A DNA stretch of 64,000 nucleotides, taken from Parcubacteria group bacterium GW2011_GWC1_36_108. GTDB taxonomy: Bacteria; Patescibacteriota; Minisyncoccia; Moranbacterales; GWC2-37-73. The position numbers and the translations under genes are program-made. Below the pieces are notes generated by a model. The model was given only the letters and a program-made list of their open reading frames with translations. It had not been told where the DNA came from and did no database searches. Location: assembly GCA_000991245.1 (NCBI GenBank), contig LBRD01000003.1, forward strand, positions 6,734 to 70,733, written 5' to 3'. Below are positions 7,112 to 24,356 of the stretch, piece by piece; position 1 is the first letter of the stretch, and each line of letters opens with the position of its first letter.

Positions 7112-7121
7112 AATCCTCCTC

Positions 7122-7788: not shown

Positions 7789-7793
7789 ACAAA

Positions 7794-8144
7794 ATGGCGA
7801 AATTTGAGACATTTGAAGATATTGTTGCTTGGCAAAAATCAAGAATTCTTGTAACTGATATTTATCAAGTATTCAGAAGCAGCAAGGACTATTCTTTTCG
7901 AGATCAAATACAGAGAGCTGCAGTTTCAATTATGAATAATATCGCCGAAGGTTATGAAAGAAAAGGAAATAAGGAATTTGCAAAGTTTTTATATATAGCA
8001 AAAGGTTCTTGCGCAGAGGTTCGTTCAATGCTTTATCTCGCTCTAGATTTAAGATATATTAATAGGGAAGAATTTAATAACTTTTCTGAACAATCACTTG
8101 TAATTTCTAAGATGTTATCAAGTCTCATAAAAACATTGTGTTAG
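7794..8144 (+). CDS. four-helix-bundle protein (23S rRNA intervening-sequence protein family)
   Basis: 116 aa. Motifs QIQRAAVSIMNNIAEGYER and FLYIAKGSCAEVRSMLYLA. Confidence 0.8.
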   Translation: MAKFETFEDIVAWQKSRILVTDIYQVFRSSKDYSFRDQIQRAAVSIMNNIAEGYERKGNKEFAKFLYIAKGSCAEVRSMLYLALDLRYINREEFNNFSEQSLVISKMLSSLIKTLC

Positions 8145-8146
8145 GG

Positions 8147-8166
8147 ACTTTAAAAACTTTAAGAAC
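8147..8166 (-). repeat. short inverted 9-mer array (ACTTTAAAA ACTTTAAGA)
   Basis: Reverse complement of the words in 7658-7788. It closes an inverted pair around gene 7794..8144. Confidence 0.55.
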
Positions 8167-8172
8167 TATACT

Positions 8173-9339
8173 ATGCGAATTTTATTCTTCAATTATGAAT
8201 TTCCACCGTTGGGTGGGGGAGCGGGAAATGCTTCTTTTTATTTGTTGCGCGAATATGCAAAAAATTCTGATTTGGAAGTTGATTTTGTGACAGCTTCAGT
8301 TGATGGGCAATATCATCTTTTGAAAATGGGAGAGAATGTTAATATTCATCGACTCCCGATTGGAAAAAATGCTGAAAATATTCATTATCAAACAAAGAAA
8401 GACTTGATTTTATACACTTGGAAAGCATATTGGTTTTCCAGAAAGTTGGCCAAGAAAAATCAATATGACTTGTCGCACTCATTTTTTTCTGTGCCTTGCG
8501 GAGCAATTTCATTGTTACTAAAATGGGAGTTCAAATTGCCATATATTGTTTCACTTCGTGGAAGCGACGTTCCTGGTTATAGTGAGCGATTTGTTGGGCT
8601 TTACAGGTGGATCACGCCGACTATTTTGAAAATTTGGAAAAATGCTTTTTTTGTGGTTGCCAACAGCCAAGGACTAAAAGAATTGGCAGTTAAATCTGAG
8701 CCGAAAAAAGAAATAGGTGTTATTTATAACGGCGTTGACGTCAAAGAATTTGTTGCTGATCCAAGCAAGCGCAATCCTGAGCACTTTACTATTATTTGTG
8801 TTTCACGTGTTACGCCGAGAAAAGGTATTCGTTTTTTGATTCAAGCTTTCAAGATGCTCTCTGGACGTTATGATAATGTGCAGCTTTTGATTGTGGGAGA
8901 TGGTAATGAAAAAAAATCACTTGAAGATTTGGTGCGAAGTCTTGAAATTGAAAACAGAGTTGAATTTGCAGGAGCGATTGATCACACAAATGTATTGGCA
9001 TATTATCAGCGAGCTGATGTTTTTGTGCTTCCGTCGCTTAATGAAGGAATGAGTAATGTGATGCTTGAAGCGTTGGCGGTTGGATTGCCAGTGGTTGCAA
9101 CTGATACGGGCGGTACCAAGGAACTTTTGACTGATAATGTGAATGGTTTGGTTGTTAAAATGAAAGATTCAAATGATTTGGCTGAAAAAATTGAAAAATT
9201 AATCGTGAATGATGAACTCAGAAAAACAATGAGTTTGGAGAGTCGCAAATTGGCGGAAAGGATGAGTTGGGAAAAAGTGGCAGGAGAATATGTTGAATTG
9301 TATAAAAAAATAGATAATTCGAGGAAGATGAAGGGGTAA
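8173..9339 (+). CDS. GT4 glycosyltransferase
   Basis: FPPLGGGAGN N-terminus. C-terminal LPSLNEGMSNVMLEALAVGLPVVATDTGG (E-x7-E region). Confidence 0.85.
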   Translation: MRILFFNYEFPPLGGGAGNASFYLLREYAKNSDLEVDFVTASVDGQYHLLKMGENVNIHRLPIGKNAENIHYQTKKDLILYTWKAYWFSRKLAKKNQYDLSHSFFSVPCGAISLLLKWEFKLPYIVSLRGSDVPGYSERFVGLYRWITPTILKIWKNAFFVVANSQGLKELAVKSEPKKEIGVIYNGVDVKEFVADPSKRNPEHFTIICVSRVTPRKGIRFLIQAFKMLSGRYDNVQLLIVGDGNEKKSLEDLVRSLEIENRVEFAGAIDHTNVLAYYQRADVFVLPSLNEGMSNVMLEALAVGLPVVATDTGGTKELLTDNVNGLVVKMKDSNDLAEKIEKLIVNDELRKTMSLESRKLAERMSWEKVAGEYVELYKKIDNSRKMKG

Positions 9340-9340
9340 G

Positions 9341-9476
9341 ACTCATTTCCACATTTCTTTTTCCCGCAAAAAGAAACCTGGAGGAAAGAAAAGCTCGCAC
9401 CGGATGAAGATACTGTGGCAAAAACTTCGTTCTTCACTAAAATTGGTGCAAAGGAATGCGGGATGCGGAATACAAA
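9341..9476 (+). repeat. mosaic repeat: module B (9341-9443) plus tail
   Basis: Near-identical to 6530-6632, starting 2 nt after the GT4 stop. The tail matches 5151-5175. Confidence 0.8.
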
Positions 9477-9480
9477 TCCA

Positions 9481-10413
9481 ATGAAAATATTGAATAATAA
9501 AATTGTGAAGTTTGTTGTAAAGTTAATAATCAGTCTTGCTTTTGTGGCTTGGTTGATTTTTGAGATTGATTGGTTGCAGGTTTGGGGGTATTTGAAAGAG
9601 CTTAGTCTTGTTTCGATTGTTTTATATGTGGCAGTGCTTCTTTTGGGGATGATGATTTCAGCTTGGAAGTGGAAAATGCTTTTGGCGCATAAAAATATTT
9701 CCATTAGTTTGAAGAAAAGTTTTCAACTTTATTTGACAGGCGCCTTCATTAATAATTTTATGCCCTCGACAATTGGAGGGGATACATATCGCGCATATCA
9801 AATTGGCAAAGACTCCAAAAGGTTTTCCGCGGTTAGTTCAAGTGTGGTTTTTGATCGTGTGACAGGACTTTTTGCAGTAATTCTTTTGACTGGGCTGATT
9901 GCGATTTTCCGGTGGAATGAAATTTCCAAATTTGCAGAATTGAAACTTGCTGTTATTGCTGTGCTTATCATTATGCACGCGATTATTTTTTTTGGTATTT
10001 TGACGAAGTTTTCTTTTTGGAAAAAAATTGCCGGCAAATTTCCAAAAATTGTGCAGGATTTTGCAATTGAGCTTGCACATTACAAAGAAGATGGGGCATA
10101 TTTGAGAGCAATTGGAATTTCAATTTTGTTCAGTGTTGTCGGTCTTGGATTGGTCAATTGGATTCTTTTTTCCGGACTTGGAATAACGGTGGGAATTTGG
10201 CAATATCTTTCAGTGATTTTTCTTATAAGCATAATTTCTGCTTTGCCAATCAGTATAAATAACATAGGGCTCAAAGAATGGGCCTATGTGACGTTCTTTG
10301 GTTTCTTTGGTGTTCCGGCCAGTGCTGTGGTTGCTGTGGCACTGATAAGCCGCGTGCTGCAAATGATTGTAAGTTTCACAGCACTGTCGATGTATTTGAG
10401 GAGCAAAAAATAG
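9481..10413 (+). CDS. flippase-like membrane protein (lysyl-PG synthase TM-region / UPF0104 family)
   Basis: Polytopic. Motif NNFMPSTIGGDTYRAYQIG. Start moved past the repeat-derived N-terminus of the track ORF. Confidence 0.65.
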   Translation: MKILNNKIVKFVVKLIISLAFVAWLIFEIDWLQVWGYLKELSLVSIVLYVAVLLLGMMISAWKWKMLLAHKNISISLKKSFQLYLTGAFINNFMPSTIGGDTYRAYQIGKDSKRFSAVSSSVVFDRVTGLFAVILLTGLIAIFRWNEISKFAELKLAVIAVLIIMHAIIFFGILTKFSFWKKIAGKFPKIVQDFAIELAHYKEDGAYLRAIGISILFSVVGLGLVNWILFSGLGITVGIWQYLSVIFLISIISALPISINNIGLKEWAYVTFFGFFGVPASAVVAVALISRVLQMIVSFTALSMYLRSKK

Positions 10414-10432
10414 TTTTGAATCTTTGTTCCTA

Positions 10433-13147
10433 TTAGTGAATTTCTTTTTCCAGATGGAATCCGTCTTTATTCCAAGTGAAATATGCCCAAGAGCCATTTG
10501 ATTTGCGAAATTCATCGATAATGTAATATTGAATGTTTCCTTGTTTTTCTTCGTGCCAAAGATGAGCTTCGCCGGAAATAGCCACGATTTCTTTTCCACT
10601 TTTTTCCAATAACTCTCTTACTTTGTCTCCATTGACGACATCATAAACTTTTTTTTGCGAGGTAAATTTGAACAATGGATGATCACTGAAGATAAGCACG
10701 CGGGAATGTTGCGTTGCGTTTATATCCGCAGAAAGCCAAGCCAATTCTTTTTCTAATATTTGCCCGCGATCACGAATACTCCATGAGCGGGTAATTTTTC
10801 TTGAATTATACATTTCTTGAAAAATAAAATTGAGAGCTTGTTTTTCTTCCGCGAGAGTTTTTTTCGAGTCAGTGTATTTCTGAGTGTATGTTTTAAATGA
10901 GATTTTGTTTAATTCTGAAAGACGATTTTCGATTAGTGTGCAATAAACATCCTCTTGGCAGGAAAGACCCATTGGTTCTCCTCCAAGAACTGTATCTAAA
11001 ATAATAATATGCAAATTTTTCAAATCAAAAGAATAGAATGTTTCATTTCTTTTGGTTGTTTCCAGCCAGTTTCGGTAGGATTTGACATTGCTTTCTATGT
11101 CATGATCTCCAAGAACAAAATGTGTCGGCAAGGCTGAATTTCTCAAATAATCGGCAACAAAGCGCGCATCCATATCTGCAGTTGTCGAGCAGCTTCTGAG
11201 ACGATGACTTGCATTATCTCCGAGACTGATTATAAAATCAGCTTTTTTTTCTCCACTAAAATCAATAAAAGCTTCAAGTTTTTCAGTTGAAACAGCTTCT
11301 CTTGAGGGACAGTGATCGATGTCTGTTATGATTGCAGCGCGCAGTTCATTATCGGAAATTTTTTTTATGTCTGACACCTTATTAAGGAGCGTTGAATTTA
11401 GGAATAAATCTTTCCATGAATGCATTTTTTCTATTGCTGAAAGTTGGCTCCTTTTTTGCATTGTTGTCTTGATATTGGCGTCATCTTCGATAGCAATTTT
11501 TGGTTTCAAATGCGTAACCTTCATTATCCCGAAATCTTTAATTTCAATAACATCAAAAAAATCAGAAAACTTTTCAGAATCGTTCTTTTTTTTGTTAGCA
11601 CTTAATTGTATTGAAAAATATTCTCCATTCTCACGTGGTTTTTCATTGTTAAATTCTTCAAAATAATTGTAGCCTTTATTTTGAAGAATAATCCAATATG
11701 TTGGTTCATATTCTGATTCTGATGAAATGAAAATTTTCGTGTTTTTGTTTGGAACTTGTTGTTCCATATAATCCGAAATTTTCTGATGTATGAATAGCGG
11801 AGTTCTATAATAATTGGGGAAGACATCTTCAGTTTCAATCTTAACCGCAACTTGCTGAGAATTTTTCAGTTGCCAAAAGCTGTCTGATATTTTTGTTGAA
11901 TTTATTATTACAATTAATAATGTAATCGTAATAATAAGGACAGTGTTGGTAAGTTTTTTTCTGAAAATTATTTTTTCAAATATTAGACCCAGAAGTATGA
12001 ACGCAAGTGGTGCAAGCACAAGATAAAACCTTGGGTATATGTACAATTTGTTTAAGGTTAAGGATATAAAATAAGCACTGCCGATGGATAGCCATAGTGC
12101 TGAAAGTATCAAAAAATCTTTTCTCTCTTCATTCTTTTCTTTTTTAATGTTCCACCCAAGAAGAAAAATGGATGTAATATATAAAAATAGTGCTGATAAT
12201 CTCCAGATGCGATCTTCTTTGCACGTGTTGCATAATATCCCCAGCGAATATCCATTTGGACGACTTGTGTTTATTCTGTCTTCTCCTGTGAGTATGAGAA
12301 AAAATTCTCCGGAATTGTAACGCAGATTCTGCACTATTTTTTCTGAAATATTTTTTTCTTCTGACTCTTCTTTTTCTTTCGAATTGCCTGAAATTTTTTC
12401 AATTAATAATTTTGAATTTGAAAAATCATATTTTAATTCATGCAATATAACAGGGGAATAGATGAGAATTGAAAATAAGACTGCATAAGCCCATGTTTTG
12501 ATGGGGAAGTGCGGTCTTTTTATTAGAAGAAAAATTACATATGCAGGGACAATAATAAAAAGACCGTTGAAATGCAATTGACTTATTATTGAAAGAATTG
12601 TTAATGAAGATATGAAAAAAACATCTCGTTTTTTTTCTTCGGGAGAAATGCTTCTTAGCAGTAAATAAAAGGTTGCTAGAACAAAAAAGGGTAAAACATT
12701 TGGATTCCAGGAAAAGCGAGCATATTGAATCAGATAAAATGAAGTGGCATATAAAGCCAGCAGCGATGCGGAAATTATTCGGGAAAAATAAAGACGCGCA
12801 AAAACAAGGAACAATGGCATAGCAGCAATAGCGAGAATTAAGTTTGGCGTGGCATGACCCTGTGGGGTGTTTCCAAAAATTTTTCCACCAAGATATTCAA
12901 TATAATAATATGCTGGTCCTATGCGCAATTCTTCTGCTCCAGCTCTTGGCCCAAGCAGCTTAAGATTTTCTATTCCATTTTGAATTGCGGGAGATGTTAT
13001 GAGATAATCATCTGTTTGATCGGTTTCAAAATGAATCCAATCGTTGAAATGATAAATTCGTAGAAATGAACCGGCAAGAATGATAAAAACTATGACAATA
13101 AGAAACCATTTTTTCTTCGTTAAGTCTAATATTTTTTTTGGGGTCAT
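10433..13147 (-). CDS. GT-C (ArnT/PMT-like) membrane glycosyltransferase fused to a C-terminal metallophosphoesterase domain
   Basis: The N-terminal ~400 aa are polytopic and paralogous to 15551..17344. The C-terminus has calcineurin-like motifs (DIDHCP, SLGDNASH, VLGDHDIE, IFSDHPLF, ISGEAHLWH). Confidence 0.7.
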   Translation of the reverse strand: MTPKKILDLTKKKWFLIVIVFIILAGSFLRIYHFNDWIHFETDQTDDYLITSPAIQNGIENLKLLGPRAGAEELRIGPAYYYIEYLGGKIFGNTPQGHATPNLILAIAAMPLFLVFARLYFSRIISASLLALYATSFYLIQYARFSWNPNVLPFFVLATFYLLLRSISPEEKKRDVFFISSLTILSIISQLHFNGLFIIVPAYVIFLLIKRPHFPIKTWAYAVLFSILIYSPVILHELKYDFSNSKLLIEKISGNSKEKEESEEKNISEKIVQNLRYNSGEFFLILTGEDRINTSRPNGYSLGILCNTCKEDRIWRLSALFLYITSIFLLGWNIKKEKNEERKDFLILSALWLSIGSAYFISLTLNKLYIYPRFYLVLAPLAFILLGLIFEKIIFRKKLTNTVLIITITLLIVIINSTKISDSFWQLKNSQQVAVKIETEDVFPNYYRTPLFIHQKISDYMEQQVPNKNTKIFISSESEYEPTYWIILQNKGYNYFEEFNNEKPRENGEYFSIQLSANKKKNDSEKFSDFFDVIEIKDFGIMKVTHLKPKIAIEDDANIKTTMQKRSQLSAIEKMHSWKDLFLNSTLLNKVSDIKKISDNELRAAIITDIDHCPSREAVSTEKLEAFIDFSGEKKADFIISLGDNASHRLRSCSTTADMDARFVADYLRNSALPTHFVLGDHDIESNVKSYRNWLETTKRNETFYSFDLKNLHIIILDTVLGGEPMGLSCQEDVYCTLIENRLSELNKISFKTYTQKYTDSKKTLAEEKQALNFIFQEMYNSRKITRSWSIRDRGQILEKELAWLSADINATQHSRVLIFSDHPLFKFTSQKKVYDVVNGDKVRELLEKSGKEIVAISGEAHLWHEEKQGNIQYYIIDEFRKSNGSWAYFTWNKDGFHLEKEIH

Positions 13148-13164
13148 AGATAATTTTTAATTCA

Positions 13165-15471
13165 TCAGTTATTTTTGTATAGATCGAAAAATTCTTGATC
13201 AAGCTTGATCACTTTTATGAAATTTCTAGGACGCCCGTTTATTTCCAGTTTGTAGACAACTTTTTCATCATCTCTGTCATAAAGAGTGTCAAAGCGAATC
13301 AAATCTTTTTTGATGGTCAAAGGAGTGACCATTTTTTTTGTTCGGGCAGATCTGCCAGCCGAAACGATTGCATAATCAAGATTGGCAGCTCGCAGTTTTG
13401 GATAGGCAAAACCAGAATAACATTTCGCCTTGAGAAAAGGGCAGACACCTTTTTTATCGGTCCATACTTGCAACTCCTCAGGATTTGGCAGGGAATTGAT
13501 GAATTGCGCAGCCTCGTAACTTCCAGTGCCCATATCCTTAAGGTCCGTGTAATATTTTTCAGGCAAAAGAGGGGAATCATAACTTATGAAAAATGGTTTG
13601 GCAAAATAAAGAGTGCCGATACCTAGGATTAGAAATAGTAATACGGTAATGTTTTTCTTGTCGAGTTTGTTTTTGATGAATTTTTCATAAAAAATACCCA
13701 TACCGATGCCGCCCAATATCATAGCCAATGGAAAGACCATAATTTGATAGCGATTCATTGCCGCAACTTTGTTAACGGTCGTTGCTAAATAATAGAGAAA
13801 GATAAAAAGAGAAAGGGAGAAAATGGTTGAGCTTGTTCTGGTGGGAATATTTTTTCCAAATATACTTATAATGGCGGCGAAAACCAGAAAGATTAGTGAT
13901 AATGGAGCTATGCTGAAAACTAATGGAAAAAAGTTTGCAAAGAACAGTCCATCATATCCACCCGTGGTGTAGGCTGATTTTGGGGAAGATATGATTGCTT
14001 CAAAATCATACCAAGACATATTCGTGTAAGTGTTGGCAAAAGTAAACGCGATAAAAAAAAGAAAAAGAGCTGAAATTGAAATGAGAAAAACTTTGCTGTA
14101 TCTGGAAAGAAAATTTAAAACATATGAAGATATTTTTCCACCTATTGCTGCAATGTCAATCAAGAGGAGTGCAAAAAAACCAGCGAAAATCGGCCAAGTG
14201 CTTTCAAAAGCCTGACTGAGCAATGTTCCCTCGAGAAGTCTTGAGGGCTTTATCCAAACTGCAGGAAACAAGACATAAAAAACCACCAATGAAACAAAAA
14301 AGAGAATGAGATAATCAGTGAGAGATTCTTTAATATATCTTTTGAGTGTCATTTTCGCATAGTTTGCTTTGTGGAAAACATATTCGACGAAAATCAGACC
14401 CAAGAAGAAAACGGAAAGAATATTGGCGACATATTTTGTCAGAAGTGCTAGTCCGAGCAATATTCCTGATAAATACAGATAAAAAGGAGTTCTTCTTTTT
14501 TGATAAACCAAAAAGGATAGCAGTGAAAGAGGTGCAAAAACCCAAAGGATAGCATCAGGATTTATGATGCTTGCCATCCCAATCAAAAGCGGAGAAAGAC
14601 CAATTGAGATATAGGAAAAAAGAGCTGTTTTCTTTCCTAAAAGTCTTTCCATAAGAAAATAGAAAAATGGAAGCATCAAGATGGTAAACAGTAAAATTGG
14701 AAATCTGAAAGTAAAATTCAATTTTTCAAAATCAAAACGATTAAGTTCGGTTCCTATCAATCCTCTGCCATAAGCCGATTTGTATGTTTTTGGACTTTCA
14801 AACAGGAGTCCTGCTCCCGAGATTATTGCTACCGTTATGCCCGGCTTGTCACTGATTTTTGTGTTTCGCCAATCTCTTTCCTTGAGATTTTTCCAATAAC
14901 TTGGAATTCGATCAAATGTCCAAAGTGGTTCATCAACTGCTCCAAATTTTGCCAGATTATATGTTCCAAGCCCCAAATTTGTCAGCATCACAGCAAAAAT
15001 AACAAACCAAGCAACTTTTCCTTGCAGTTTTGCCCATATTTTGAAAGATGAAAATGTGTTTTTGACCTCGTTCTCTTTCCATATGAAATTTCTTCTACCA
15101 ATCAGAAAGAATCCTGCTAGGATTACGTATAGTCCTGATGCGATATAAAAAAGATAATGAAAATCGGTTGATTGACTGAGACCATAAAGCATCACGAATT
15201 CTGCTGGCAAAAAAGTCAGCAACAACTTTTCAATGGTCAGTTTCAAGCTTGTTTCTTTGGTATAAAAAAAAGCGATGATTCCAAACGTCAAAACAATGAG
15301 TATGAAATATGCCAAATAGTGATTTGTCGTGCGGCTGGAAATGTTGAACATTGAAAGATTCTTTACCTCGCGGGAAATGAAAAACAATGTGTTTATAGTG
15401 AAGGCAAAAGACAGAAAAGTCAGCAGCGCATCAAGTGTATTTTTAGGAATATTATTCAAGAAATTTTTCAT
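13165..15471 (-). CDS. GT-C family membrane glycosyltransferase (PMT_2/ArnT-like)
   Basis: Many TM helices. The first ATG (15471) is preferred over the track's TTG at 15498. Confidence 0.6.
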   Translation of the reverse strand: MKNFLNNIPKNTLDALLTFLSFAFTINTLFFISREVKNLSMFNISSRTTNHYLAYFILIVLTFGIIAFFYTKETSLKLTIEKLLLTFLPAEFVMLYGLSQSTDFHYLFYIASGLYVILAGFFLIGRRNFIWKENEVKNTFSSFKIWAKLQGKVAWFVIFAVMLTNLGLGTYNLAKFGAVDEPLWTFDRIPSYWKNLKERDWRNTKISDKPGITVAIISGAGLLFESPKTYKSAYGRGLIGTELNRFDFEKLNFTFRFPILLFTILMLPFFYFLMERLLGKKTALFSYISIGLSPLLIGMASIINPDAILWVFAPLSLLSFLVYQKRRTPFYLYLSGILLGLALLTKYVANILSVFFLGLIFVEYVFHKANYAKMTLKRYIKESLTDYLILFFVSLVVFYVLFPAVWIKPSRLLEGTLLSQAFESTWPIFAGFFALLLIDIAAIGGKISSYVLNFLSRYSKVFLISISALFLFFIAFTFANTYTNMSWYDFEAIISSPKSAYTTGGYDGLFFANFFPLVFSIAPLSLIFLVFAAIISIFGKNIPTRTSSTIFSLSLFIFLYYLATTVNKVAAMNRYQIMVFPLAMILGGIGMGIFYEKFIKNKLDKKNITVLLFLILGIGTLYFAKPFFISYDSPLLPEKYYTDLKDMGTGSYEAAQFINSLPNPEELQVWTDKKGVCPFLKAKCYSGFAYPKLRAANLDYAIVSAGRSARTKKMVTPLTIKKDLIRFDTLYDRDDEKVVYKLEINGRPRNFIKVIKLDQEFFDLYKNN

Positions 15472-15550
15472 ATAAAAATGGTTGATTTCACGGTGCAATT
15501 GTAATATAATACCGGTGTGATCAATTTAATGTTTATACTTATCATTATAC

Positions 15551-17344
15551 ATGAATAATCCAATAGATAAAGAGTCTTTGAAGTCTTTGGTTGGGAGCAG
15601 ATTTTTTGTTGGAGCAATCTTGATTGCGATTTTGGCAGTTGGTGTTTTTTTGCGCGCATATAACTTTTCTGACTGGCAACATTTTGAACTTGATCAATCT
15701 CGCGATGCAAAGGTTATAGATTTGGCGGTGGAAAACGGAGTGGGGGATCTTCCTCTTTTGGGACCAAAGGCAGCGGGGTCATTTTTGCGTCTCGGTCCAA
15801 TATTTTATTATTTCGGTTATGTGAGCGCAAAAGTATTTGGTAACACGCCTTCTGGGATTGCTGTCATTTCACTCATTTTTTCTTGTTTAACGCTGCCCCT
15901 GTTTTATTTGTTTGTCAGAAGATTTTTTTCAAAAAAAATAGGACTTATGCTTCTAGGAGTTTTTTCCGTTTCAATTTTTCTTGTTCTGTACTCACGTTTT
16001 TCATGGAATCCTAATAATTTGCCATTTTTCATTTTGGGTGCACTTTATGGTCTCCTTCGTGCAACGGATGAGAATGAAAAAAGAAAAGGCTGGTGGTTGA
16101 TTGTAGGAGTTGTTTCTTTGACTATTGCAACTCAACTTCACTTTGTGGCTTTTTTGGGCTTGCCGATGATTGCCGTCGCGTATCTTCTAATAAAAAGACC
16201 TTTAATAAACTGGAAATATTGGCTGGCTTCTATCGCATGCATTGTTTTTTTGTATATTCCTTCGATAATAAATGATTTCAAGACAGGTGGTTCAAATATT
16301 ATTGAATTTGAAAAAGTGTTCGCAAAAACATCCACCAAGGGCGAGCATACTCTTGTTGAAAAAATAATAAGAAACATCGACAAGAGTTCGGCTGGATATG
16401 TCTTGCTGATAAGTGGAAATTCACAGGCCGAATTGCCAAAGGTGAAGATTCCAAGAATACGACCAATTTTTACATGTGATGAGGATTGCAAAAAAGGTGT
16501 CCCAATGGGAATTTTTTCACTATTCTTTGCTATTATTGGAAGTGCACTTTTGGGTTGGAATATTTTCAAAACAAAAGAAACTTCGCGCAGAGATTTTTTG
16601 ATCATCGTGGCTATTTGGGTATTGGTTACGCTGGCACTTTTTACTCCGATTTCATATGATATGGCTCCAAGATTCTTTCTGCTGGTTGCTCCGATCCCAT
16701 TTGTTTATTTGGGGCTTATTTTGGATTTTTTTGAAAAAAGAAAAGCCAGTGTTCTTTCTTGGGTTTTCGTTTTGATTCTCTTGGCTTCAAATGGCTGGCT
16801 TGTTAAAGAAAGATTTAGCGAACTTGCAAATGCTCCCGTTAAAGAATTTGAGATATCTTCGGACAAAATTCTCAAAGAAAACGAACGAGTAACCCTTGAG
16901 CAACAGCTTCTGATTACCAAATATATTGAAAGTATTTATAATCAAAACAACTTTCCAGTTTATGTTAATAGTGAGGCATTTTATCGCAGATCATTTTTGT
17001 ATCATCTGGAACAACGTTTGATAGTTCGCGATGATTTTCGCAATACCAGAAGTGTTTATTCTGAGGGAAATTATTTTTTGGTGTATCCATCTTCTTCAAC
17101 TGTGGAAAAAATTTATGAAAATTATCAGGATAAATATGATATTGCTGAAATCAAGGAATTTGGCACGCTTAGAGTTGTGCGCTTGCTTCCAAAATTGCAA
17201 ATGATAACAGCGGTGCGTCAGGAATTTGCTCCAGCAAGAAAACCAATCAGCGCTCCTGGCGTGCCAGTGCGTTGTCGTTGGAATGAAATTTTTTCCCAAT
17301 GTAATAGTGACGGAACGGAGGCGGAGGATGAAAGTAGTTTATAA
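15551..17344 (+). CDS. GT-C family membrane glycosyltransferase (ArnT-like)
   Basis: FLRAYNFSDWQHFELDQSRD...LLGPKA...GPIFYY, paralogous to the N-terminus of 10433..13147. Confidence 0.7.
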   Translation: MNNPIDKESLKSLVGSRFFVGAILIAILAVGVFLRAYNFSDWQHFELDQSRDAKVIDLAVENGVGDLPLLGPKAAGSFLRLGPIFYYFGYVSAKVFGNTPSGIAVISLIFSCLTLPLFYLFVRRFFSKKIGLMLLGVFSVSIFLVLYSRFSWNPNNLPFFILGALYGLLRATDENEKRKGWWLIVGVVSLTIATQLHFVAFLGLPMIAVAYLLIKRPLINWKYWLASIACIVFLYIPSIINDFKTGGSNIIEFEKVFAKTSTKGEHTLVEKIIRNIDKSSAGYVLLISGNSQAELPKVKIPRIRPIFTCDEDCKKGVPMGIFSLFFAIIGSALLGWNIFKTKETSRRDFLIIVAIWVLVTLALFTPISYDMAPRFFLLVAPIPFVYLGLILDFFEKRKASVLSWVFVLILLASNGWLVKERFSELANAPVKEFEISSDKILKENERVTLEQQLLITKYIESIYNQNNFPVYVNSEAFYRRSFLYHLEQRLIVRDDFRNTRSVYSEGNYFLVYPSSSTVEKIYENYQDKYDIAEIKEFGTLRVVRLLPKLQMITAVRQEFAPARKPISAPGVPVRCRWNEIFSQCNSDGTEAEDESSL

Positions 17345-17392
17345 AGTTTGTAAAGTTATAAAGTTCATAAAGTTTATAAAGTTCATAAAGTT
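17337..17392 (+). repeat. 9-bp-period array (GTTTATAAA/GTTCATAAA x6)
   Basis: Direct reading. It generates the fake KFIKFIKFIK N-terminus of track ORF 17226. Confidence 0.75.
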
Positions 17393-17399
17393 AAAAAAT

Positions 17400-18926
17400 A
17401 TGAAAAAGACATTTCTTATCTTGTTTGCCATCATAATTCTGGGTGCTTTTTTGCGCTTTTATAAATTGGGAGAACTTTCTTTTGTGGCGGATGAATTTTT
17501 GGATATGAATTCTTCCTATGCTTATGCTCAAACTGGAACTTGGCAATCCTGGGATTTTAATCGTGGAGTTGTTAATGTGGAAAATGAATTTGCACCGCGC
17601 GATGAAAGAGCATGGCCATATAAGATTCAAGTTGCCAAACTGTTTGGTTTTTTTGCTCCGACTGAAGAGGTGGCAAGGAGTATTAGTGCGGTGTGGGGAA
17701 TCTTGAGTATTATCCTAATTTTTTTCGTGGCAAAATATTTTACTAGGAAAAATTCAATCGGACTTCTCAGTGCATTTTTGTTTGCAATAAGTGTCAGCGG
17801 AATCATTTTTGACAGACGTCTTCGAATGTATGCAATGTTCTTCCCATTTTTTCTGCTTTTCTCTTGGTTGACGTATAAATTTTTTGAGGAATCTTATGGA
17901 GGCAAGCTCAGGGTTTTTAAATATGTAAATGAAAAAATAGGTGTAAATTTGAAATATATCCTGCCAATGCTTCTGTCAGGATCGATGAGTCTGAAGATTC
18001 ATGATTTGACGGTCAGTATGGTTGCTATCTTTACTACATATGTCTTTATTATGACAACCAAGACTTTCTTGGAAAAAAAGACATTCATTTGGAATAAATA
18101 TTCTGTGACATTAAGCGTTGTCTTGGTCGCTGCTGCAGGAATTTTTACTTTTGCATCTGAAAAGATTGGAATGTATGCAGCTGGTATAAAATTTTTCAAC
18201 GACAATTTTAGTTATTTTTCAATAGTTACTTCGGACTATAGCCATCCATTGTTGGCACTTTTGTTTTTTGTTGCCGGTATTTATTATCTGGCGGTGCATA
18301 AAAAACTTTCCAAGGAGGGAATATGGCTGGCAGTTTCTTTTTTGGTTCCGCTTTTAATGGCAGTATTTTTGTGGAGGAGAAATGCGGGCGCCCAATATAT
18401 TTTCTTTGCTCAGTCTTTTGCTATTATCTTGATTGCATCTGGTGTTTACGGTGCAGCAAAATTTTTCAAAAATAATCTCGAGACTTTTTCTGCAAAAAAA
18501 GTATATTTCGTGACCATTGCCTTATCTCTGATGCTTTTGCCAAACTACGCATATTTTTTTCAGGAGAACAACGCTTACAGCCAGACTTCAGCAGCTGAAA
18601 ATCCGAATTATCGAAGCATCTTCACATATTTCAAGAAGAAAAAAATCGATGGCGATGTTCTGATAACAAGAAATTTTCGAAACTATTATTGGAGTGGACA
18701 AAATGTGAAAGTGATTGACTTTGGTGGGGAATTGGCTGAAGAAAAATTTTCATTAGCCCAACTTACAAATGTCGTGAATGAAAATAAGACAGGTTGGGTA
18801 ATTCTTTCCGACAATGATGACCGCTACATTTCAAATGAGGCTTCTGTTTATATGCAAGAAAATATGACCAAGATAAATGATATTGCAGTGCGAGGAAACG
18901 TGCTGGTTTACAGATGGGGGATGTAA
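17400..18926 (+). CDS. GT-C family membrane glycosyltransferase (GT39/GT83-like)
   Basis: Start moved to MKKTFLILFAIIILGAFLRFYKLGE. Polytopic. Confidence 0.7.
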   Translation: MKKTFLILFAIIILGAFLRFYKLGELSFVADEFLDMNSSYAYAQTGTWQSWDFNRGVVNVENEFAPRDERAWPYKIQVAKLFGFFAPTEEVARSISAVWGILSIILIFFVAKYFTRKNSIGLLSAFLFAISVSGIIFDRRLRMYAMFFPFFLLFSWLTYKFFEESYGGKLRVFKYVNEKIGVNLKYILPMLLSGSMSLKIHDLTVSMVAIFTTYVFIMTTKTFLEKKTFIWNKYSVTLSVVLVAAAGIFTFASEKIGMYAAGIKFFNDNFSYFSIVTSDYSHPLLALLFFVAGIYYLAVHKKLSKEGIWLAVSFLVPLLMAVFLWRRNAGAQYIFFAQSFAIILIASGVYGAAKFFKNNLETFSAKKVYFVTIALSLMLLPNYAYFFQENNAYSQTSAAENPNYRSIFTYFKKKKIDGDVLITRNFRNYYWSGQNVKVIDFGGELAEEKFSLAQLTNVVNENKTGWVILSDNDDRYISNEASVYMQENMTKINDIAVRGNVLVYRWGM

Positions 18927-19053: not shown

Positions 19054-20583
19054 CTATGCGCTTGGTTCGTTACCAGAAAGTTCTTCTTGAATCTCAGTTT
19101 TCTTTTTCTTGGAGATGATGCTTTTTAAATATTCAAAATCTGTCAGCGTGATTTCTTTCAGCAAGATAAGGATAAAAATATAAAGGGAGAGCAGTGCGAC
19201 AGACCAGATTAGGAAGATGAAAGTTCCTTGAGAGAAAAATAGGGAAGCGAAATACATAATAATTCCTGCAAAAATCATTTTGAGCAAGCTTTTAATTTTA
19301 ATCAAAGTTCCGAAATCTTTTTGAATGTAATACAAGATTGCGAGCATTACCACAAAAGAAGTGATTGATGTTGCAATGGCGCTGCCAGCAAGAGCATATT
19401 TTTTGATCAAAATCACATTGAGGACGGTGTTGAGAATGACACCGAAGATTGAAATCCACATTGGAATTTTTGTTTTGCCGGCGCCGTTAGCCACAAAGCT
19501 CATCACATAAAAAATAGTGAGAAATCCCACACCATATGCCAAGATCGACATTGGATATGCTGCATCAAGATACTCAGCGGAATAAAAAAGTTTGATGATT
19601 GGAGCAGAAAATTGTGCCATCAAAATTACAGCTGGAATCAAGAAGATTAACATTAGTCGCAGGGAATGTTGAATGATCTGGTTGGTTTTGGCGCTGTCGT
19701 TTTCAGAAGTGCTTTTTGAAACCACTGGCAAAAGCATTATCGTGAGCGCATAAAAAATGTAATATGGGATGCGTCCAACAGTTAGAGCAGCGTTATAGAT
19801 TCCAGTTAGATGATCATTGTGCAAGATGCCTTTTACGAGGTACAAATCAATGCTGATAAGAAGCTCGTAGGCCAAAAAGAATAATATAACCTGCCAAGCG
19901 TAGTTAAGCAGTTTTTTGGTCTCAAATTCACTCTGTAGGCTCAAATTTTGCACCTTGGCGGCCTTTTTAATTTCTTTGGTATATTTGAGCTGATCAAGAG
20001 AAAAGGCAATTATAAAGACGCTTAATGCGGCTAGGGCATATCCCACAATCGATCCTGGCACTCCAAAAGCGTATGCAAGCCCTACGATTGCCACTACCTT
20101 CAAGATAGAGCGCAGGGTTTTGAGGATTGATTGGACATTGAACTTATGCAGGGCTGTATAGAAGGAAAAATAGAAAGAGGCCGCGGCAAAAGTAGGGATT
20201 ATGAGTGTTGAAATGCGAAATAGTGGCGTAAGCGTCTCATCTCCTAATGCTCTACTTATAAGTGGGGCACAAAAAAAGAAAATGACAGTGATTGATCCAA
20301 TAAGAAGAGATTGCAAAATAAGTGCTTTTCTTTTGATAACCAGCACTAGGCGCGGGTTGGTTTCAAAAATCTCGCTGATATATTTTGCCATCGCAGTCGG
20401 AATGCCATTGCCGATCAAAATAATGATCATTGTAGTCATTGTCACAACCAAACCATAGCGACCATAATCTGCCGGTCCCAAAATGCGCCCAACAAAAGAA
20501 TGGATGATATATCCGGAAAGATTGAAGATTATTTCACTGGCAATAAGCCACATTGTTGATTTTGCGAGATTTTTTGAGGTCAT
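19054..20583 (-). CDS. polysaccharide flippase (Wzx / MOP superfamily)
   Basis: 509 aa, about 14 TM segments, typical flippase N-terminus. Confidence 0.8.
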   Translation of the reverse strand: MTSKNLAKSTMWLIASEIIFNLSGYIIHSFVGRILGPADYGRYGLVVTMTTMIIILIGNGIPTAMAKYISEIFETNPRLVLVIKRKALILQSLLIGSITVIFFFCAPLISRALGDETLTPLFRISTLIIPTFAAASFYFSFYTALHKFNVQSILKTLRSILKVVAIVGLAYAFGVPGSIVGYALAALSVFIIAFSLDQLKYTKEIKKAAKVQNLSLQSEFETKKLLNYAWQVILFFLAYELLISIDLYLVKGILHNDHLTGIYNAALTVGRIPYYIFYALTIMLLPVVSKSTSENDSAKTNQIIQHSLRLMLIFLIPAVILMAQFSAPIIKLFYSAEYLDAAYPMSILAYGVGFLTIFYVMSFVANGAGKTKIPMWISIFGVILNTVLNVILIKKYALAGSAIATSITSFVVMLAILYYIQKDFGTLIKIKSLLKMIFAGIIMYFASLFFSQGTFIFLIWSVALLSLYIFILILLKEITLTDFEYLKSIISKKKKTEIQEELSGNEPSA

Positions 20584-24249: not shown

Positions 24250-24259
24250 AAATAGTGTT

Positions 24260-24346: not shown

Positions 24347-24356
24347 CAATATAAAA

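What the first reader, a model, noticed from the sequence alone, without database searches (positions are those of the whole stretch)
10433..18926. Four adjacent ArnT/PMT-like GT-C transferases, one fused to a metallophosphoesterase
10433..13147, 13165..15471, 15551..17344 and 17400..18926 all encode large polytopic GT-C-type proteins. The first and third share a clearly paralogous N-terminus (FLR.Y.F.DW.HFE.DQ...LLGP...GP.YYY). The 904-aa protein adds a C-terminal calcineurin-like phosphoesterase domain (DHCP, GDNASH, GDHD, SDHPLF, GEAHLWH). A lipid-carrier-dependent transferase fused to a phosphoesterase would put glycan transfer and phosphodiester or pyrophosphate cleavage (for example carrier recycling or phospho-sugar trimming) in one envelope protein.
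Basis: partly seen in the sequence, partly recalled or inferred. Interest (0 to 1): 0.5.

Follow-up and report, generated by a model that had tools for sequence, protein, structure and literature searches.

The report
Glycosyltransferase fused to an outward-facing phosphoesterase
An uncultured Moranbacteria (candidate phyla radiation) genome carries four adjacent membrane glycosyltransferases, one genuinely fused to an unusual metal-dependent phosphoesterase predicted to sit outside the cell; related genomes keep this enzyme in the same gene cluster, free or fused to other glycosyltransferases, so it probably performs an undescribed step in building the cell-surface glycan.

Summary
The four ORFs are real. 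P1 and P2 are on the minus strand and P3 and P4 on the plus strand. All four are GT-C-type, although P4 shows this only by profile-profile comparison.

The 904-aa protein is a true in-frame fusion. Its exact sequence occurs on 9 contigs, and an 89%-identical copy exists in another genome. It has an 11-TM GT-C core (N-in, C-out), an outer α/β domain, a roughly 15-20-aa variable, low-confidence junction and a metallophosphoesterase (MPP) domain.

The MPP belongs to a small Patescibacteria-restricted family: 35 clusters among 1.84 billion proteins. Its dimetal site is shifted towards carboxylates (GNHD→GDHD, GHxH→GEAH), and it has four conserved cysteines.

Free members carry an N-terminal membrane anchor. 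In Moranbacteria they lie in the same conserved cluster: GT2, UDP-glucose dehydrogenase, GT4, flippase-like protein, several GT-Cs, Wzx.

The family has fused to three different GT-C partners. A distantly related canonical MPP is fused to a GT-C in the same slot.

I infer an outward-facing phosphoesterase acting on an intermediate shared by the GT-Cs. The most likely substrate is a polyprenyl-diphosphate-linked species (about 40%); a phosphorylated acceptor glycan is the main rival (about 30%). The substrate is unproven.

Novelty: a new variant of known kinds.

The parts
11864..13147 (-). P1 residues 1-428: GT-C transmembrane core. It has 11 TM helices and a basic cytoplasmic N-terminus. The first outer loop carries the invariant R30...D43-Q44...D47 and LLGP/GPxYYY motifs.
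   Evidence: The AF2 model has pLDDT 90.4. Foldseek matches ArnT 5ezm (E 4e-6), AglB, STT3, ALG12 and Pmt4. P1 keeps 42 of 43 family-conserved positions. PMT_2 scores 22.7 bits on residues 78-235, below the cut-off.
11393..11863 (-). P1 residues 429-585: extracytoplasmic α/β C-terminal domain of the GT-C unit, shared with P3. The unfused orthologues end here, at ...MHSWKDLF.
   Evidence: BLASTP of P1 against P3 aligns residues 8-553. AF2 strands and helices cover residues 451-549.
11348..11392 (-). P1 residues 586-600: low-confidence, poorly conserved junction segment. It replaces the stop codon of the GT-C gene and the membrane anchor of the free phosphoesterase.
   Evidence: pLDDT is below 50 for residues 586-598. 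Identity to P0002 over residues 551-600 is 68%, against 86-94% in the other regions.
10433..11347 (-). P1 residues 601-904 plus the stop codon: metallophosphoesterase domain. Motifs are TDIDHC (608-613), SLGDN (641-645), LGDHD (679-683), SDHP (821-824) and GEAHLWH (859-865). There are four near-invariant cysteines (613, 653, 730, 736) and a helical insert at about 734-811.
13165..15471 (-). P2: 768-aa GT-C (PMT/PMT_2) with about 160 extra N-terminal residues containing four TM segments. Its stop lies 17 nt upstream of the P1 start codon, so the two are very probably co-transcribed.
   Evidence: Pfam PMT_2 scores 44.9 bits and PMT 29.9 bits. Orthologues occupy the same position in L001, L003, L005, L007, L011, L013 and L019.
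15551..17344 (+). P3: 597-aa GT-C, a full-length paralogue of the GT-C part of P1. It is divergently transcribed from P2 across a 79-bp spacer.
   Evidence: Pfam PMT_2 scores 43.5 bits. BLASTP against P1 gives 33% identity and E 6e-96.
17400..18926 (+). P4: 508-aa divergent GT-C-like protein. It carries an invariant D31-E32 (ADEFLD) in the first outer loop and belongs to a highly conserved Moranbacteria family.
   Evidence: More than 500 homologues, of which the 120 listed are 51-100% identical and about 509 aa long. Of 59 members, 26 hit PMT_2. hhalign against the P1/P3 family gives 96.9% probability and E 1.4e-10. The family profile hits Pmt1 6p25 at E 0.064.
4059..5000 (+). Context: GT2 with two C-terminal TM helices, the ArnC/PgfS/GtrB type. 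It is the presumed polyprenyl-phosphate sugar synthase that makes the lipid-linked donor.
   Evidence: Pfam Glycos_transf_2 E 2e-31. NCBIfam ArnC E 2e-51 and PgfS E 8e-46, both below the equivalog cut-offs. TM helices at residues 236-254 and 270-288. Orthologues in the syntenic clusters are 68-89% identical.
5204..6529 (+). Context: UDP-glucose 6-dehydrogenase (TuaD-like).
   Evidence: Pfam UDPG_MGDP_dh N-terminal, central and C-terminal domains. NCBIfam TuaD E 3e-142.
8173..9339 (+). Context: GT4 (GT-B) cytoplasmic glycosyltransferase, conserved in the cluster.
   Evidence: Pfam Glycos_transf_1 E 4e-47.
9415..10413 (+). Context: flippase-like polytopic protein (LPG_synthase_TM / TIGR00374), convergent with P1 across a 19-nt gap.
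   Evidence: Pfam PF03706 E 2e-39. TIGR00374 scores 81.1 bits, above the 43.2 cut-off. It is conserved next to the MPP or MPP-fusion gene in every syntenic locus.
19054..20583 (-). Context: MOP/Wzx-type flippase, convergent with P4 and conserved at this position.
   Evidence: Pfam Polysacc_synt and MurJ.

Best explanation
Shown. The window comes from a Candidatus Moranbacteria (Patescibacteria/CPR) genome. It holds a conserved envelope-glycosylation cluster:
- an ArnC/GtrB-type GT2 with two C-terminal TM helices;
- a UDP-glucose dehydrogenase;
- a GT4;
- a TIGR00374 flippase-like protein;
- four GT-C glycosyltransferases (P1-P4);
- a Wzx-type flippase.

P1 is a genuine fusion. A complete, non-degenerate 11-TM GT-C is joined through a short, poorly conserved, low-confidence linker to a metallophosphoesterase domain. 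The fusion has lost the N-terminal membrane anchor that free-standing family members carry.

Inferred with good support (about 0.85). The phosphoesterase lies on the outer face of the membrane, held close to the GT-C active sites. It works in the same pathway as the GT-Cs. The grounds are that it sits in this cluster as a free gene and that it has been fused to three different GT-C partners.

Inferred, committed mechanism (about 0.4).
1. The GT2 loads a sugar, possibly glucuronic acid, onto polyprenyl phosphate.
2. The lipid-linked donor is flipped to the outer face.
3. The GT-Cs transfer sugars to a lipid-linked or wall-bound glycan outside the cell.
4. The dimetal phosphoesterase hydrolyses a diphosphate or phosphodiester bond of a polyprenyl-diphosphate-linked species at the membrane surface. 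The substrate would be spent polyprenyl diphosphate or a stalled polyprenyl-PP-glycan.
5. This returns polyprenyl phosphate to the carrier pool that all the GT-Cs share.

The chemistry would resemble that proposed for B. subtilis UpsH, but on the opposite face of the membrane and with a different branch of the superfamily.
For: Organism and cluster.

Fusion is real.
- The identical protein is found on 9 contigs.
- An 89%-identical 904-aa copy is in GW2011_GWD2_38_11.
- The unfused orthologues end exactly at the junction, and the linker is less conserved.
- The GT-C part keeps 42 of 43 family-conserved residues.

Outward orientation.
- The AF2 model shows 11 TM helices.
- Short inner loops hold 12 K/R in 37 residues; outer loops hold 15 in 141.
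- In GT-C enzymes the first loop, which carries the catalytic aspartate, and the C-terminal domain lie on the non-cytoplasmic side (established knowledge of ArnT, PMT and OST, the fold hits).
- 40 of 45 free homologues start with basic residues followed by a hydrophobic segment. The median distance from that segment to the first strand is about 20 residues, and two sequences look lipobox-like.
- Four near-invariant cysteines are present.

Pathway coupling.
- A free MPP lies inside the same cluster in L001/L013, L020 and L022.
- Fusions to a P2-like paralogue occur in L006-L008, L010, L011 and L019 and in P0286-P0289, P0292 and P0298.
- P0296 is a fusion to a full-length P2-type protein.
- The window and L005 carry the fusion to a P1/P3-type.
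- P0117 (L023) carries a distantly related canonical MPP fused to a P1-like GT-C in the same slot.
- An NJ tree scatters the fused forms among the free ones.

Chemistry.
- UpsH is a membrane-anchored MPP for which genetic evidence supports release of UndP from UndPP-linked wall polymers (PMC11898649).
- The window also encodes Wzx, Wzy, LCP and a TagA/WecG-family enzyme, so UndPP-linked polymers are expected.
Against: - No activity or substrate is shown.
- An ArnC/GtrB-type GT2 makes polyprenyl-monophosphate sugars. GT-C transfer from such donors releases polyprenyl phosphate directly, which needs no phosphatase.
- Known outer-face carrier phosphatases are BacA/UppP and PAP2 enzymes, not MPPs (own knowledge).
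- The family is not of the UpsH type. Its profile does not match E. coli YaeI (COG1408) and matches CpdA (COG1409) only weakly. UpsH faces the cytoplasm.
- The metal site is non-canonical: Asn→Asp in 45 of the 45 sequences with a residue at that column, first His of GHxH→Glu in 45 of 46, and motif I His replaced by Asp in 28 and by Gly in 6 of 43. Catalysis itself is therefore not certain.
- The closest unfused relative of P1 (L003) has no MPP within 9 kb.
- Many free-standing members lie outside any glycan cluster.
- Charge bias around the anchor of the free forms is only moderate: the N-flank is more positive in 27 of 46 and less positive in 10 of 46.
Confidence: 0.4

Rival explanations
1. 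Acceptor-side processing. The outward-facing phosphoesterase removes a phosphate, or cleaves a phosphodiester substituent, on the glycan or lipoglycan that the GT-Cs build. This would expose, cap or edit acceptor sites. Known parallels (own knowledge) are PGAP5/Cdc1/Ted1 trimming phosphoethanolamine from GPI mannoses made by GT-C mannosyltransferases, LpxE/LpxF dephosphorylation preceding GT-C modification of lipid A, and PhoD/GlpQ trimming of teichoic acids.
For: - Fusion to three different GT-C partners fits a shared acceptor polymer as well as it fits a shared carrier.
- In the fusion the domain hangs on a poorly structured stretch running from the last strand of the α/β domain (residue 549) to about 600, so it could reach away from the membrane.
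- The nearest generic MPPs outside the family are fused to lectin-type surface modules (DUF2341, Laminin_G_3, dockerin), which suggests glycan-directed extracellular enzymes.
- Structural neighbours include the glycerophosphodiesterase GpdQ, the type 5 acid phosphatase and PhoD.
- A transferase fused to a phosphatase that trims the transferred sugar has a precedent in the gPRT-PRP ribofuranosyltransferases (PMC11127046).
Against: - The conserved cluster contains no enzyme that would install a phosphate or phosphodiester substituent. No LicD, TagF, EptA or Stealth-type protein was seen.
- Free forms are tethered by short linkers (median about 20 residues, as few as 5-11), which favours a membrane-surface substrate.
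Confidence: 0.3
2. Surface scavenging enzyme with no mechanistic link to glycosyl transfer. The MPP would be an extracellular phosphodiesterase or nucleotidase that harvests phosphate, nucleotides or lipid head groups for a metabolically reduced CPR cell. Fusion to a GT-C would merely replace one membrane anchor with another.
For: - Many free-standing members lie next to housekeeping genes such as uvrA/B/C-like genes, not glycan genes.
- JGI names several members CpdA-type phosphodiesterases.
- Structural neighbours include the cyclic-nucleotide phosphodiesterases Rv0805 and Lmo2642 and the sphingomyelinase-like enzymes.
Against: - In Moranbacteria the gene occupies one fixed slot of the glycan cluster in at least nine distinct loci. 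In the most complete of these loci that slot lies between the P2-type GT-C and the flippase-like gene.
- Every fusion partner found is a GT-C from that cluster. No other membrane protein serves as partner.
- A second, distantly related MPP was recruited to the same slot and the same kind of partner.
Confidence: 0.12
3. Catalytically dead or altered module. The MPP fold would serve as a phosphate- or glycan-binding or scaffolding domain, as in the MPP-fold pseudoenzyme GAP50, helping the GT-C hold a phosphorylated substrate.
For: - Three of the canonical metal ligands are replaced across the family, and six members have Gly at the motif I His position.
Against: - The replacements are to Asp and Glu, which still bind metals. 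They are almost invariant, which points to a conserved, carboxylate-rich dimetal site rather than decay.
- The other ligands and the motif III His are invariant or nearly so: D609, D644, H682, H823, H862.
Confidence: 0.1
4. Artefact. A sequencing frameshift or misassembly joined a GT-C gene to a neighbouring phosphoesterase gene.
For: - Close relatives with 62-71% identity (P0003-P0005) are unfused, at 576-579 aa.
Against: - The identical 904-aa protein is found on 9 contigs from several sources.
- An 89%-identical fusion occurs in another genome, with many substitutions but the same frame.
- The anchor of the free enzyme is cleanly absent, and other fusion types exist.
Confidence: 0.01

Closest known systems
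ArnT (GT83) and PMT (GT39) type GT-C glycosyltransferases, Pfam PMT_2/PMT
   Same: - Polytopic GT-C fold with cytoplasmic N-terminus, a long first outer loop carrying conserved acidic residues, and an outer C-terminal domain.
- Best GT-C fold hits are ArnT 5ezm/5f15, followed by AglB/STT3, ALG12 and Pmt4.
- P2 and P3 pass PMT_2.
- A polyprenyl-phosphate sugar synthase (GT2) lies nearby.
   Different: - No sequence-level match to any solved GT-C for the P1/P3 family profile or for P2.
- The P1/P3 family has E-x-D-Q in place of the usual DE/DD motif.
- P4 is recognisable only by profile-profile comparison.
- None of the solved GT-C enzymes among the fold hits, and none I know of, carries a phosphoesterase domain.
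Three-component extracytoplasmic glycosylation systems (GtrB/GtrA/Gtr-type, CsbB/GtcA/YfhO; PMC11127046, PMC11898649)
   Same: - A GT2 that charges polyprenyl phosphate, a flippase candidate, and a GT-C that transfers the sugar outside the cell.
   Different: - There are four GT-Cs rather than one.
- The flippase candidate is a TIGR00374/LPG_synthase_TM protein, not GtrA or an SMR-type protein.
- UDP-glucose dehydrogenase, a GT4 and an MPP are added as conserved members.
UpsH (YpbG) of Bacillus subtilis, an undecaprenyl-diphosphate-linked polymer hydrolase (PMC11898649)
   Same: - A metallophosphoesterase tied to the membrane by a single N-terminal segment.
- It acts on carrier-lipid-linked envelope intermediates, which is a functional precedent for an MPP in carrier-lipid economy.
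   Different: - UpsH is COG1408 and faces the cytoplasm.
- The present family's profile does not match the COG1408 protein YaeI and matches CpdA only weakly.
- The present family is predicted to face outward.
- It has an altered metal site, four cysteines and a roughly 80-residue helical insert.
ADPRibase-Mn-like dimetal phosphatase (2nxf), GpdQ, Rv0805/CpdA class III phosphodiesterases, mammalian type 5 purple acid phosphatase
   Same: - Best sequence-profile hits are 2nxf (E 1.4e-6) and purple acid phosphatases.
- The SLGDN and RDxG...WL segments are shared with acid phosphatases.
   Different: - Only 14-20% identity.
- GNHD becomes GDHD, GHxH becomes GEAH, and the motif I His is mostly Asp.
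- There is no Tyr ligand at the purple acid phosphatase position.
- The family has a membrane anchor or a GT-C fusion, a cysteine pattern and a helical insert.
PGAP5/MPPE1, Cdc1, Ted1: lumenal MPPs that edit GPI anchors (own knowledge, not tested here)
   Same: - Membrane-bound MPPs on the non-cytoplasmic side.
- They act on a lipid-linked glycan assembled by dolichol-phosphate-mannose-dependent GT-C enzymes.
   Different: - Eukaryotic, separate polypeptides with canonical motifs.
- No homology beyond the superfamily was tested.
- No phosphoethanolamine transferase is present in this cluster.
Bipartite gPRT-PRP ribofuranosyltransferases and PPPRS-PRP fusions (PMC11127046)
   Same: - A glycan-building transferase is covalently fused to a phosphatase that acts on the product of the transfer step.
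   Different: - Those are cytoplasmic.
- The phosphatase is of the HAD type.
- The transferase is not a GT-C.
- The phosphate originates from PRPP, for which there is no sign here.

Membership tests
GT-C superfamily (PMT_2 / GT39-GT83-like) | Profile match to Pfam PMT_2 or PMT above the curated cut-off | tested here: inconclusive
   P2 scores 44.9 bits and P3 43.5 bits, both above the 26.1 cut-off. P1 scores 22.7 bits, below it. P4 has no hit. Most P1 homologues carry precomputed PF13231 hits, and 26 of 59 P4 family members hit PMT_2 at E <= 0.01.
GT-C superfamily (PMT_2 / GT39-GT83-like) | GT-C fold: polytopic core with TM1 followed by a long outer loop carrying conserved acidic residues, and a non-cytoplasmic C-terminal domain | tested here: met
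   Tested for P1. The AF2 model has pLDDT 90.4. Foldseek matches ArnT, AglB/STT3, ALG12 and Pmt4. There are 11 TM helices with N-in, C-out orientation. D43 and Q44 are at least 95% conserved in the family and retained in P1 (the equivalent D48/Q49 of P3 are invariant in A5). P3 follows by 33% identity over the full length. P4 follows by hhalign at 96.9% probability over the N-terminal module only. P2 was not modelled.
GT-C superfamily (PMT_2 / GT39-GT83-like) | Uses a polyprenyl-phosphate-linked sugar donor | not testable with these tools
   Only context is available: an ArnC/PgfS-like GT2 with two C-terminal TM helices and a flippase-like protein in the same conserved cluster.
Calcineurin-like metallophosphoesterase superfamily (PF00149) | Profile match above the curated cut-off | tested here: met
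   The isolated domain scores 28.2 bits against a 21.5 cut-off (E 3e-6). The match is not reported when the full 904-aa protein is scanned. NCBIfam SpdA gives E 5e-7 on residues 789-862.
Calcineurin-like metallophosphoesterase superfamily (PF00149) | Two-sheet sandwich MPP fold | tested here: met
   [not shown]
Calcineurin-like metallophosphoesterase superfamily (PF00149) | Canonical metal-ligand motifs DxH, GD, GNH(D/E), H, GHxH | tested here: not met
   GD and the motif IV His are kept. Motif III is GDHD in 45 of the 45 sequences with a residue at that column. Motif V is GEAH in 45 of 46. The motif I His position is Asp in 28, His in 9 and Gly in 6 of 43. The substitutions are to metal-binding carboxylates, so this is a variant site, not evidence of loss.
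Calcineurin-like metallophosphoesterase superfamily (PF00149) | Metal-dependent phosphoester hydrolysis | not testable with these tools
   Needs enzyme assays.
UpsH/YpbG-type (COG1408) carrier-lipid-releasing MPP | Sequence membership in the COG1408 branch | tested here: not met
   The family profile gives no hit to E. coli YaeI (COG1408) and 15.5 bits to CpdA (COG1409). The YpbG sequence itself was not available.
UpsH/YpbG-type (COG1408) carrier-lipid-releasing MPP | Catalytic domain on the cytoplasmic face | tested here: not met
   The domain is predicted to face outward, both from the GT-C topology and from the anchors of the free forms. UpsH is protease-protected in protoplasts.
UpsH/YpbG-type (COG1408) carrier-lipid-releasing MPP | Releases undecaprenyl phosphate from UndPP-linked polymers | not testable with these tools
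   This is the function proposed by analogy only.
Purple acid phosphatases | GDxxY motif with the Fe(III)-binding tyrosine | tested here: not met
   The family has GDN-x-(S/N/K)-(H/F/Y). The residue aligned with the Tyr is Ser, Asn or Lys.
Three-component extracytoplasmic glycosylation system | Polyprenyl-phosphate GT2, a flippase and a GT-C encoded together | tested here: inconclusive
   The GT2 and the GT-Cs are present and syntenic. The flippase role of the TIGR00374 protein is assumed, since no GtrA/ArnEF-type protein was found.

The most novel reading that the evidence does not exclude
This MPP family would be a previously unrecognised class of outer-face carrier-lipid hydrolase in Patescibacteria. 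It would be a dimetal enzyme with a carboxylate-rich site that cleaves polyprenyl diphosphate, or polyprenyl-PP-glycans, beside the GT-C active sites. In several lineages it would be welded to a GT-C to form a single 'transfer and recycle' enzyme. That would be a third solution to extracytoplasmic undecaprenyl-phosphate regeneration, alongside BacA/UppP and PAP2 enzymes, and an outward-facing counterpart of UpsH.
Probability: 0.25. Interest if true: 0.7.

Novelty: new variant of a known kind. Interest (0 to 1): 0.5.

Why it matters
How Patescibacteria build their envelopes is almost unknown, and the envelope is their interface with host cells. This locus defines a conserved multi-GT-C glycosylation module in Moranbacteria.

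Gene neighbourhood and repeated independent fusions tie a small, lineage-restricted phosphoesterase family with an atypical metal site to that module. This gives a concrete, testable candidate for a missing extracytoplasmic phosphoester-cleaving step, either carrier-lipid regeneration or glycan phosphate editing, physically coupled to GT-C transfer.

If the carrier-lipid reading is right, it adds a new enzyme class to undecaprenyl-phosphate homeostasis, which is an antibiotic-relevant process. If the acceptor reading is right, it would be a bacterial parallel to GPI-anchor editing by MPPs.

Tried and rejected
- First combined alignment. MAFFT pulled the C-terminal domain of 61 of 64 unfused GT-Cs onto the MPP region in the first alignment for the full-length model (A2). 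It was replaced by A3, which includes only 12 MPP sequences and was checked before use.
- Sequence search against solved structures. Neither the P1/P3 family profile nor P2 found anything. The P4 profile gave only a marginal Pmt1 hit.
- Model coordinates. The tools do not return them. Cysteine pair distances, the position of the MPP active site relative to the membrane, and its distance from the GT-C site could not be measured.
- Neighbours of free-standing MPPs outside the cluster (L009, L014-L018, L021). They are housekeeping genes and gave no functional lead.
- Long proteins among the generic MPP hits. They were checked for further GT-C fusions and none was found. They carry DUF2341, Laminin_G_3 or dockerin domains instead.
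- Literature. Searches on MPP with GT-C or polyprenyl terms, and on Patescibacteria with GT39, ArnT or PMT, found no description of this fusion or family. Absence holds within that library only.
- UpsH membership. Rejected on the COG1408 test and on topology.
- Purple acid phosphatase membership. Rejected on the missing Tyr ligand.
- Frameshift artefact. Rejected.
- Carrier phosphatases in the window. No UppP/BacA or PAP2 gene is present in the 64 kb. This says nothing about the rest of the genome.

Full report
**1. What is in the sequence**

The four large ORFs exist as described.
- P1: 10433..13147, minus strand, 904 aa.
- P2: 13165..15471, minus strand, 768 aa.
- P3: 15551..17344, plus strand, 597 aa.
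- P4: 17400..18926, plus strand, 508 aa.

They form two divergent pairs. P2 is followed 17 nt later by P1 on the minus strand. P3 is followed 55 nt later by P4 on the plus strand. A 79-bp spacer separates the P2 and P3 start codons.

The best database matches place the window in Candidatus Moranbacteria, in the Parcubacteria group of the Patescibacteria/CPR. The exact P1 sequence is deposited as a 'hypothetical protein' (KKP90148.1, KKQ40234.1) and was seen on 9 contigs.

**2. Are all four GT-C enzymes?**

- P2 and P3 pass Pfam PMT_2, and P2 also passes PMT.
- P1 falls just below the PMT_2 cut-off. Three results still place it in the family:
  - it is 33% identical to P3 over residues 8-553 (E 6e-96), so the paralogy is full-length and not only N-terminal;
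  - it keeps 42 of the 43 positions that are at least 95% conserved among 65 homologues, including R30, D43, Q44, D47, W147, N150, H192 and R373;
  - its AF2 model (pLDDT 90.4) matches ArnT, AglB/STT3, ALG12 and PMT structures.
- P4 has no hit of its own in Pfam or NCBIfam. It belongs to a large family of proteins about 509 aa long (more than 500 hits; the 120 listed are 51-100% identical).
  - Of 59 members scanned, 26 hit PMT_2.
  - Its family profile aligns with the P1/P3 family profile at 96.9% probability (E 1.4e-10) over the TM1, first-loop and TM2-4 module.
  - It carries an invariant D31-E32 in that loop.

'Four adjacent GT-C transferases' is therefore right, with P4 a divergent member. 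None has a sequence-level relative among solved structures.

**3. The phosphoesterase domain**

Scanned alone, the C-terminal 303 residues pass Pfam Metallophos. NCBIfam SpdA, a class III phosphodiesterase, matches residues 789-862.

An AF2 model of residues 585-904 built on 45 homologues is confident (pLDDT 94.8). It is an MPP sandwich with a helical insert of about 80 residues.

HMM alignments to 2nxf and to acid phosphatases fix the motif correspondence. Column counts then show a family-wide variant site:

| Motif | Canonical | This family (P1 numbering) | Counts |
|---|---|---|---|
| I | D-x-H | D609-x-(D/H/G)611 | D 28, H 9, G 6 of 43 |
| II | GD | G643-D644 | D in all 45 sequences with a residue there |
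| III | GNH(D/E) | G-D681-H682-D683 | Asn→Asp in all 45 sequences with a residue there |
| IV | H | H823 | 45 of 46 |
| V | GHxH | G859-E860-A861-H862 | first His→Glu in 45 of 46 |

All replacements are carboxylates. I read this as a conserved, carboxylate-rich dimetal site rather than decay. That reading is inference.

Four cysteines (613, 653, 730, 736) are invariant or nearly so.

**4. Is the fusion real, and how was it made?**

- An 89%-identical 904-aa protein is encoded in GW2011_GWD2_38_11 (P0002, L005).
- The closest unfused orthologues (P0003-P0005, 62-71% identical, 576-579 aa) end at ...MHSWKDLF, which is P1 residue about 583.
- The fusion continues from there with about 20 residues and then RAAIITDIDHC.
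- Residues 551-600 are only 68% identical between the two fusion proteins, against 86-94% in the other regions.
- pLDDT falls below 50 at residues 586-598.
- Free-standing relatives of the MPP start with basic residues and a hydrophobic segment that the fusion lacks.

The event therefore joined a complete GT-C to the catalytic domain of a membrane-anchored MPP, and the GT-C replaced the anchor. A frameshift artefact is excluded.

**5. Topology**

The AF2 helices give 11 membrane spans. The N-terminus has 5 K/R in 13 residues. Short loops assigned to the inside hold 12 K/R in 37 residues, while outside loops hold 15 in 141 and are net acidic.

This places the first loop (with D43), the α/β domain (residues 451-549) and the MPP outside the cell, as in ArnT, PMT and OST.

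Of the 45 free homologues, 40 have an N-terminal anchor. The median distance from anchor to first β-strand is about 20 residues, with a typical range of 5-36. Two sequences look lipobox-like.

Charge bias around the anchor favours N-in, C-out, but only moderately: 27 of 46 for and 10 of 46 against. This matters because UpsH, another anchored MPP, faces the cytoplasm.

The outward orientation therefore rests mainly on the GT-C fusions. It is an inference.

**6. Distribution and context**

An exhaustive profile search of 1.84 billion representative proteins finds only 35 clusters at E <= 1e-30. A sharp gap then separates these from generic MPPs.

Eight of the 35 are full-length GT-C fusions and one is a fragment of a fusion:
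- one is of the window's type, with a P1/P3-like partner;
- six, plus the fragment, have a P2-like paralogue that lacks P2's first ~160 residues;
- one (P0296, 1040 aa) has a full-length P2-type partner.

An NJ tree without support values scatters the fused forms among the free forms.

Locus comparisons show a conserved Moranbacteria cluster: GT2, UDP-glucose dehydrogenase, GT4, flippase-like protein, then a variable slot, the P2-type GT-C, the P3-type, the P4-type and Wzx. The variable slot holds one of the following:
- a free MPP (L001/L013, L020, L022);
- a P2-like::MPP fusion (L007, L010, L011, L019);
- the P1::MPP fusion (window, L005);
- a P1 orthologue with no MPP within 9 kb (L003/L004);
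- a P1-like GT-C fused to a distantly related MPP with canonical GNHD (P0117 in L023). This MPP scores 60.7 bits against the family profile, whereas family members score at least 139 bits.

In other Patescibacteria the free MPP lies among housekeeping genes.

The recurrence of the association, with different partners and even a different MPP, is the strongest evidence that the phosphoesterase works with the GT-C enzymes.

**7. The rest of the cluster**

- The GT2 has the ArnC/PgfS/GtrB architecture: a GT-A domain plus two C-terminal TM helices. Its best NCBIfam matches are ArnC and PgfS, both below the equivalog cut-offs.
- The adjacent polytopic protein is a TIGR00374 flippase-like domain protein.
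- Together with the GT-Cs this resembles the three-component extracytoplasmic glycosylation systems (PMC11127046). Here the system is expanded to four GT-Cs and has a UDP-glucose dehydrogenase, a GT4 and a Wzx-type flippase attached.
- Further along the window lie more GT4 and GT2 genes, a second sugar dehydrogenase, Wzy, an LCP ligase and a TagA/WecG-family enzyme. Undecaprenyl-diphosphate-linked wall polymers are therefore expected in this organism.

**8. Mechanism**

Shown: the architecture, the conservation and the association.

Inferred: an outward-facing, membrane-proximal dimetal phosphoesterase acting on something common to all the GT-Cs. That is either the polyprenyl carrier or the shared acceptor.

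I commit to the carrier-side reading at about 40%: hydrolysis of polyprenyl diphosphate, or of polyprenyl-PP-linked glycans, at the membrane surface, returning polyprenyl phosphate. The reasons are:
- the short tethers of the free forms;
- the diesterase or pyrophosphatase character of the closest solved relatives;
- the UpsH precedent for an MPP that frees UndP from UndPP-linked wall polymers (PMC11898649);
- the indifference of the MPP to which GT-C it is fused to.

Against this reading:
- GtrB/ArnC-type donors release polyprenyl monophosphate, which needs no phosphatase;
- the family is not UpsH-like in sequence or in orientation;
- the insert over the active site is polar;
- catalysis by the variant site is unproven.

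The main rival, at about 30%, is editing of a phosphorylated acceptor glycan. It is favoured by the lectin-type modules fused to the nearest generic MPPs and by the precedents of GPI editing, lipid A remodelling and the gPRT-PRP enzymes. It is weakened because the cluster contains no enzyme that would install a phosphate.

A surface scavenging role (about 12%), a non-catalytic module (about 10%) and an artefact (about 1%) are less likely.

**9. Novelty**

Both halves belong to well-known superfamilies, and three-component glycosylation is established. What appears new within the limits of the searches is:
- the MPP subfamily itself, which is small, Patescibacteria-restricted, and marked by an altered metal site, a cysteine pattern and a helical insert;
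- its fixed place in a multi-GT-C cluster;
- the repeated GT-C::MPP fusions.

I rate it a new variant of a known kind, of moderate interest. It is a clear and testable lead on envelope biogenesis in an uncultured phylum, but no new principle has been demonstrated.

Noticed in passing
window 7794-8144 (+): A 116-aa 23S_rRNA_IVP four-helix-bundle protein (PF05635, E 5e-36) sits between the UDP-glucose dehydrogenase and the GT4 of the conserved cluster. A gene with the same Pfam family (plus a weak bAvd hit) lies at the equivalent place in L003. Its role there is unexplained.
   Followed up: partly
window 24851-26782 (-): A 643-aa polytopic DUF6541/DUF1616 protein may be a fifth GT-C-like enzyme. 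A 45%-identical homologue lies close to the cluster in L020. DUF6541 also appears as a weak hit in one P4-family member and in one P1 homologue.
   Followed up: no
window 23137-37437 and 49909-50646: A second glycan-assembly block holds four GT4s, two GT2s, a second UDP-sugar dehydrogenase (29350-30633), Wzy_C (32462-34165) and an LCP ligase (35420-36622). A TagA/WecG-family transferase lies at 49909-50646. This suggests an undecaprenyl-diphosphate-linked secondary wall polymer attached to peptidoglycan.
   Followed up: no
window 41445-48600: A tyrosine integrase (41445-42263) is followed by a stretch with lower GC (0.325-0.35) and strongly positive AT skew. The stretch carries DUF4116, an atypical 525-aa GT2, a Bro-N protein and ORFs without Pfam hits. 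It may be an integrated mobile element.
   Followed up: no
L003/L004 (GCA_028699965.1), locus coordinates 9001-10740: The closest unfused orthologue of P1 (71% identity) occupies the same slot downstream of P2. No member of the MPP family lies within 9 kb. A 134-153-aa ORF without Pfam hits follows the gene. Whether that genome has the MPP elsewhere is unknown.
   Followed up: partly
L023 (GCA_964500125.1), locus coordinates 6502-8997: P0117 is a P1-like GT-C fused to a shorter MPP with canonical TDLH/GNHD motifs. It has no cysteine pattern and no helical insert. It lies in the same cluster slot. This looks like a convergent recruitment of phosphoesterase activity.
   Followed up: partly
proteins P0318, P0363, P0365, P0367, P0378, P0390 (one search list): The nearest generic MPP relatives outside the family are large secreted proteins fused to DUF2341, Laminin_G_3 (concanavalin-like lectin) or dockerin modules.
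   Followed up: partly
window 13165-15471 (-), P2 residues 1-160: P2 and its orthologues carry about 160 extra N-terminal residues with four hydrophobic segments ahead of the GT-C core. The P2-like paralogues that are fused to the MPP lack this extension.
   Followed up: no
window 21397-22896 (-) and 49327-49866 (+): The window encodes an RtcB RNA ligase and a LigT-type 2',5'-RNA ligase/phosphoesterase. RtcB and thymidylate kinase are syntenic with the Wzx end of the cluster in L013 and L020.
   Followed up: no
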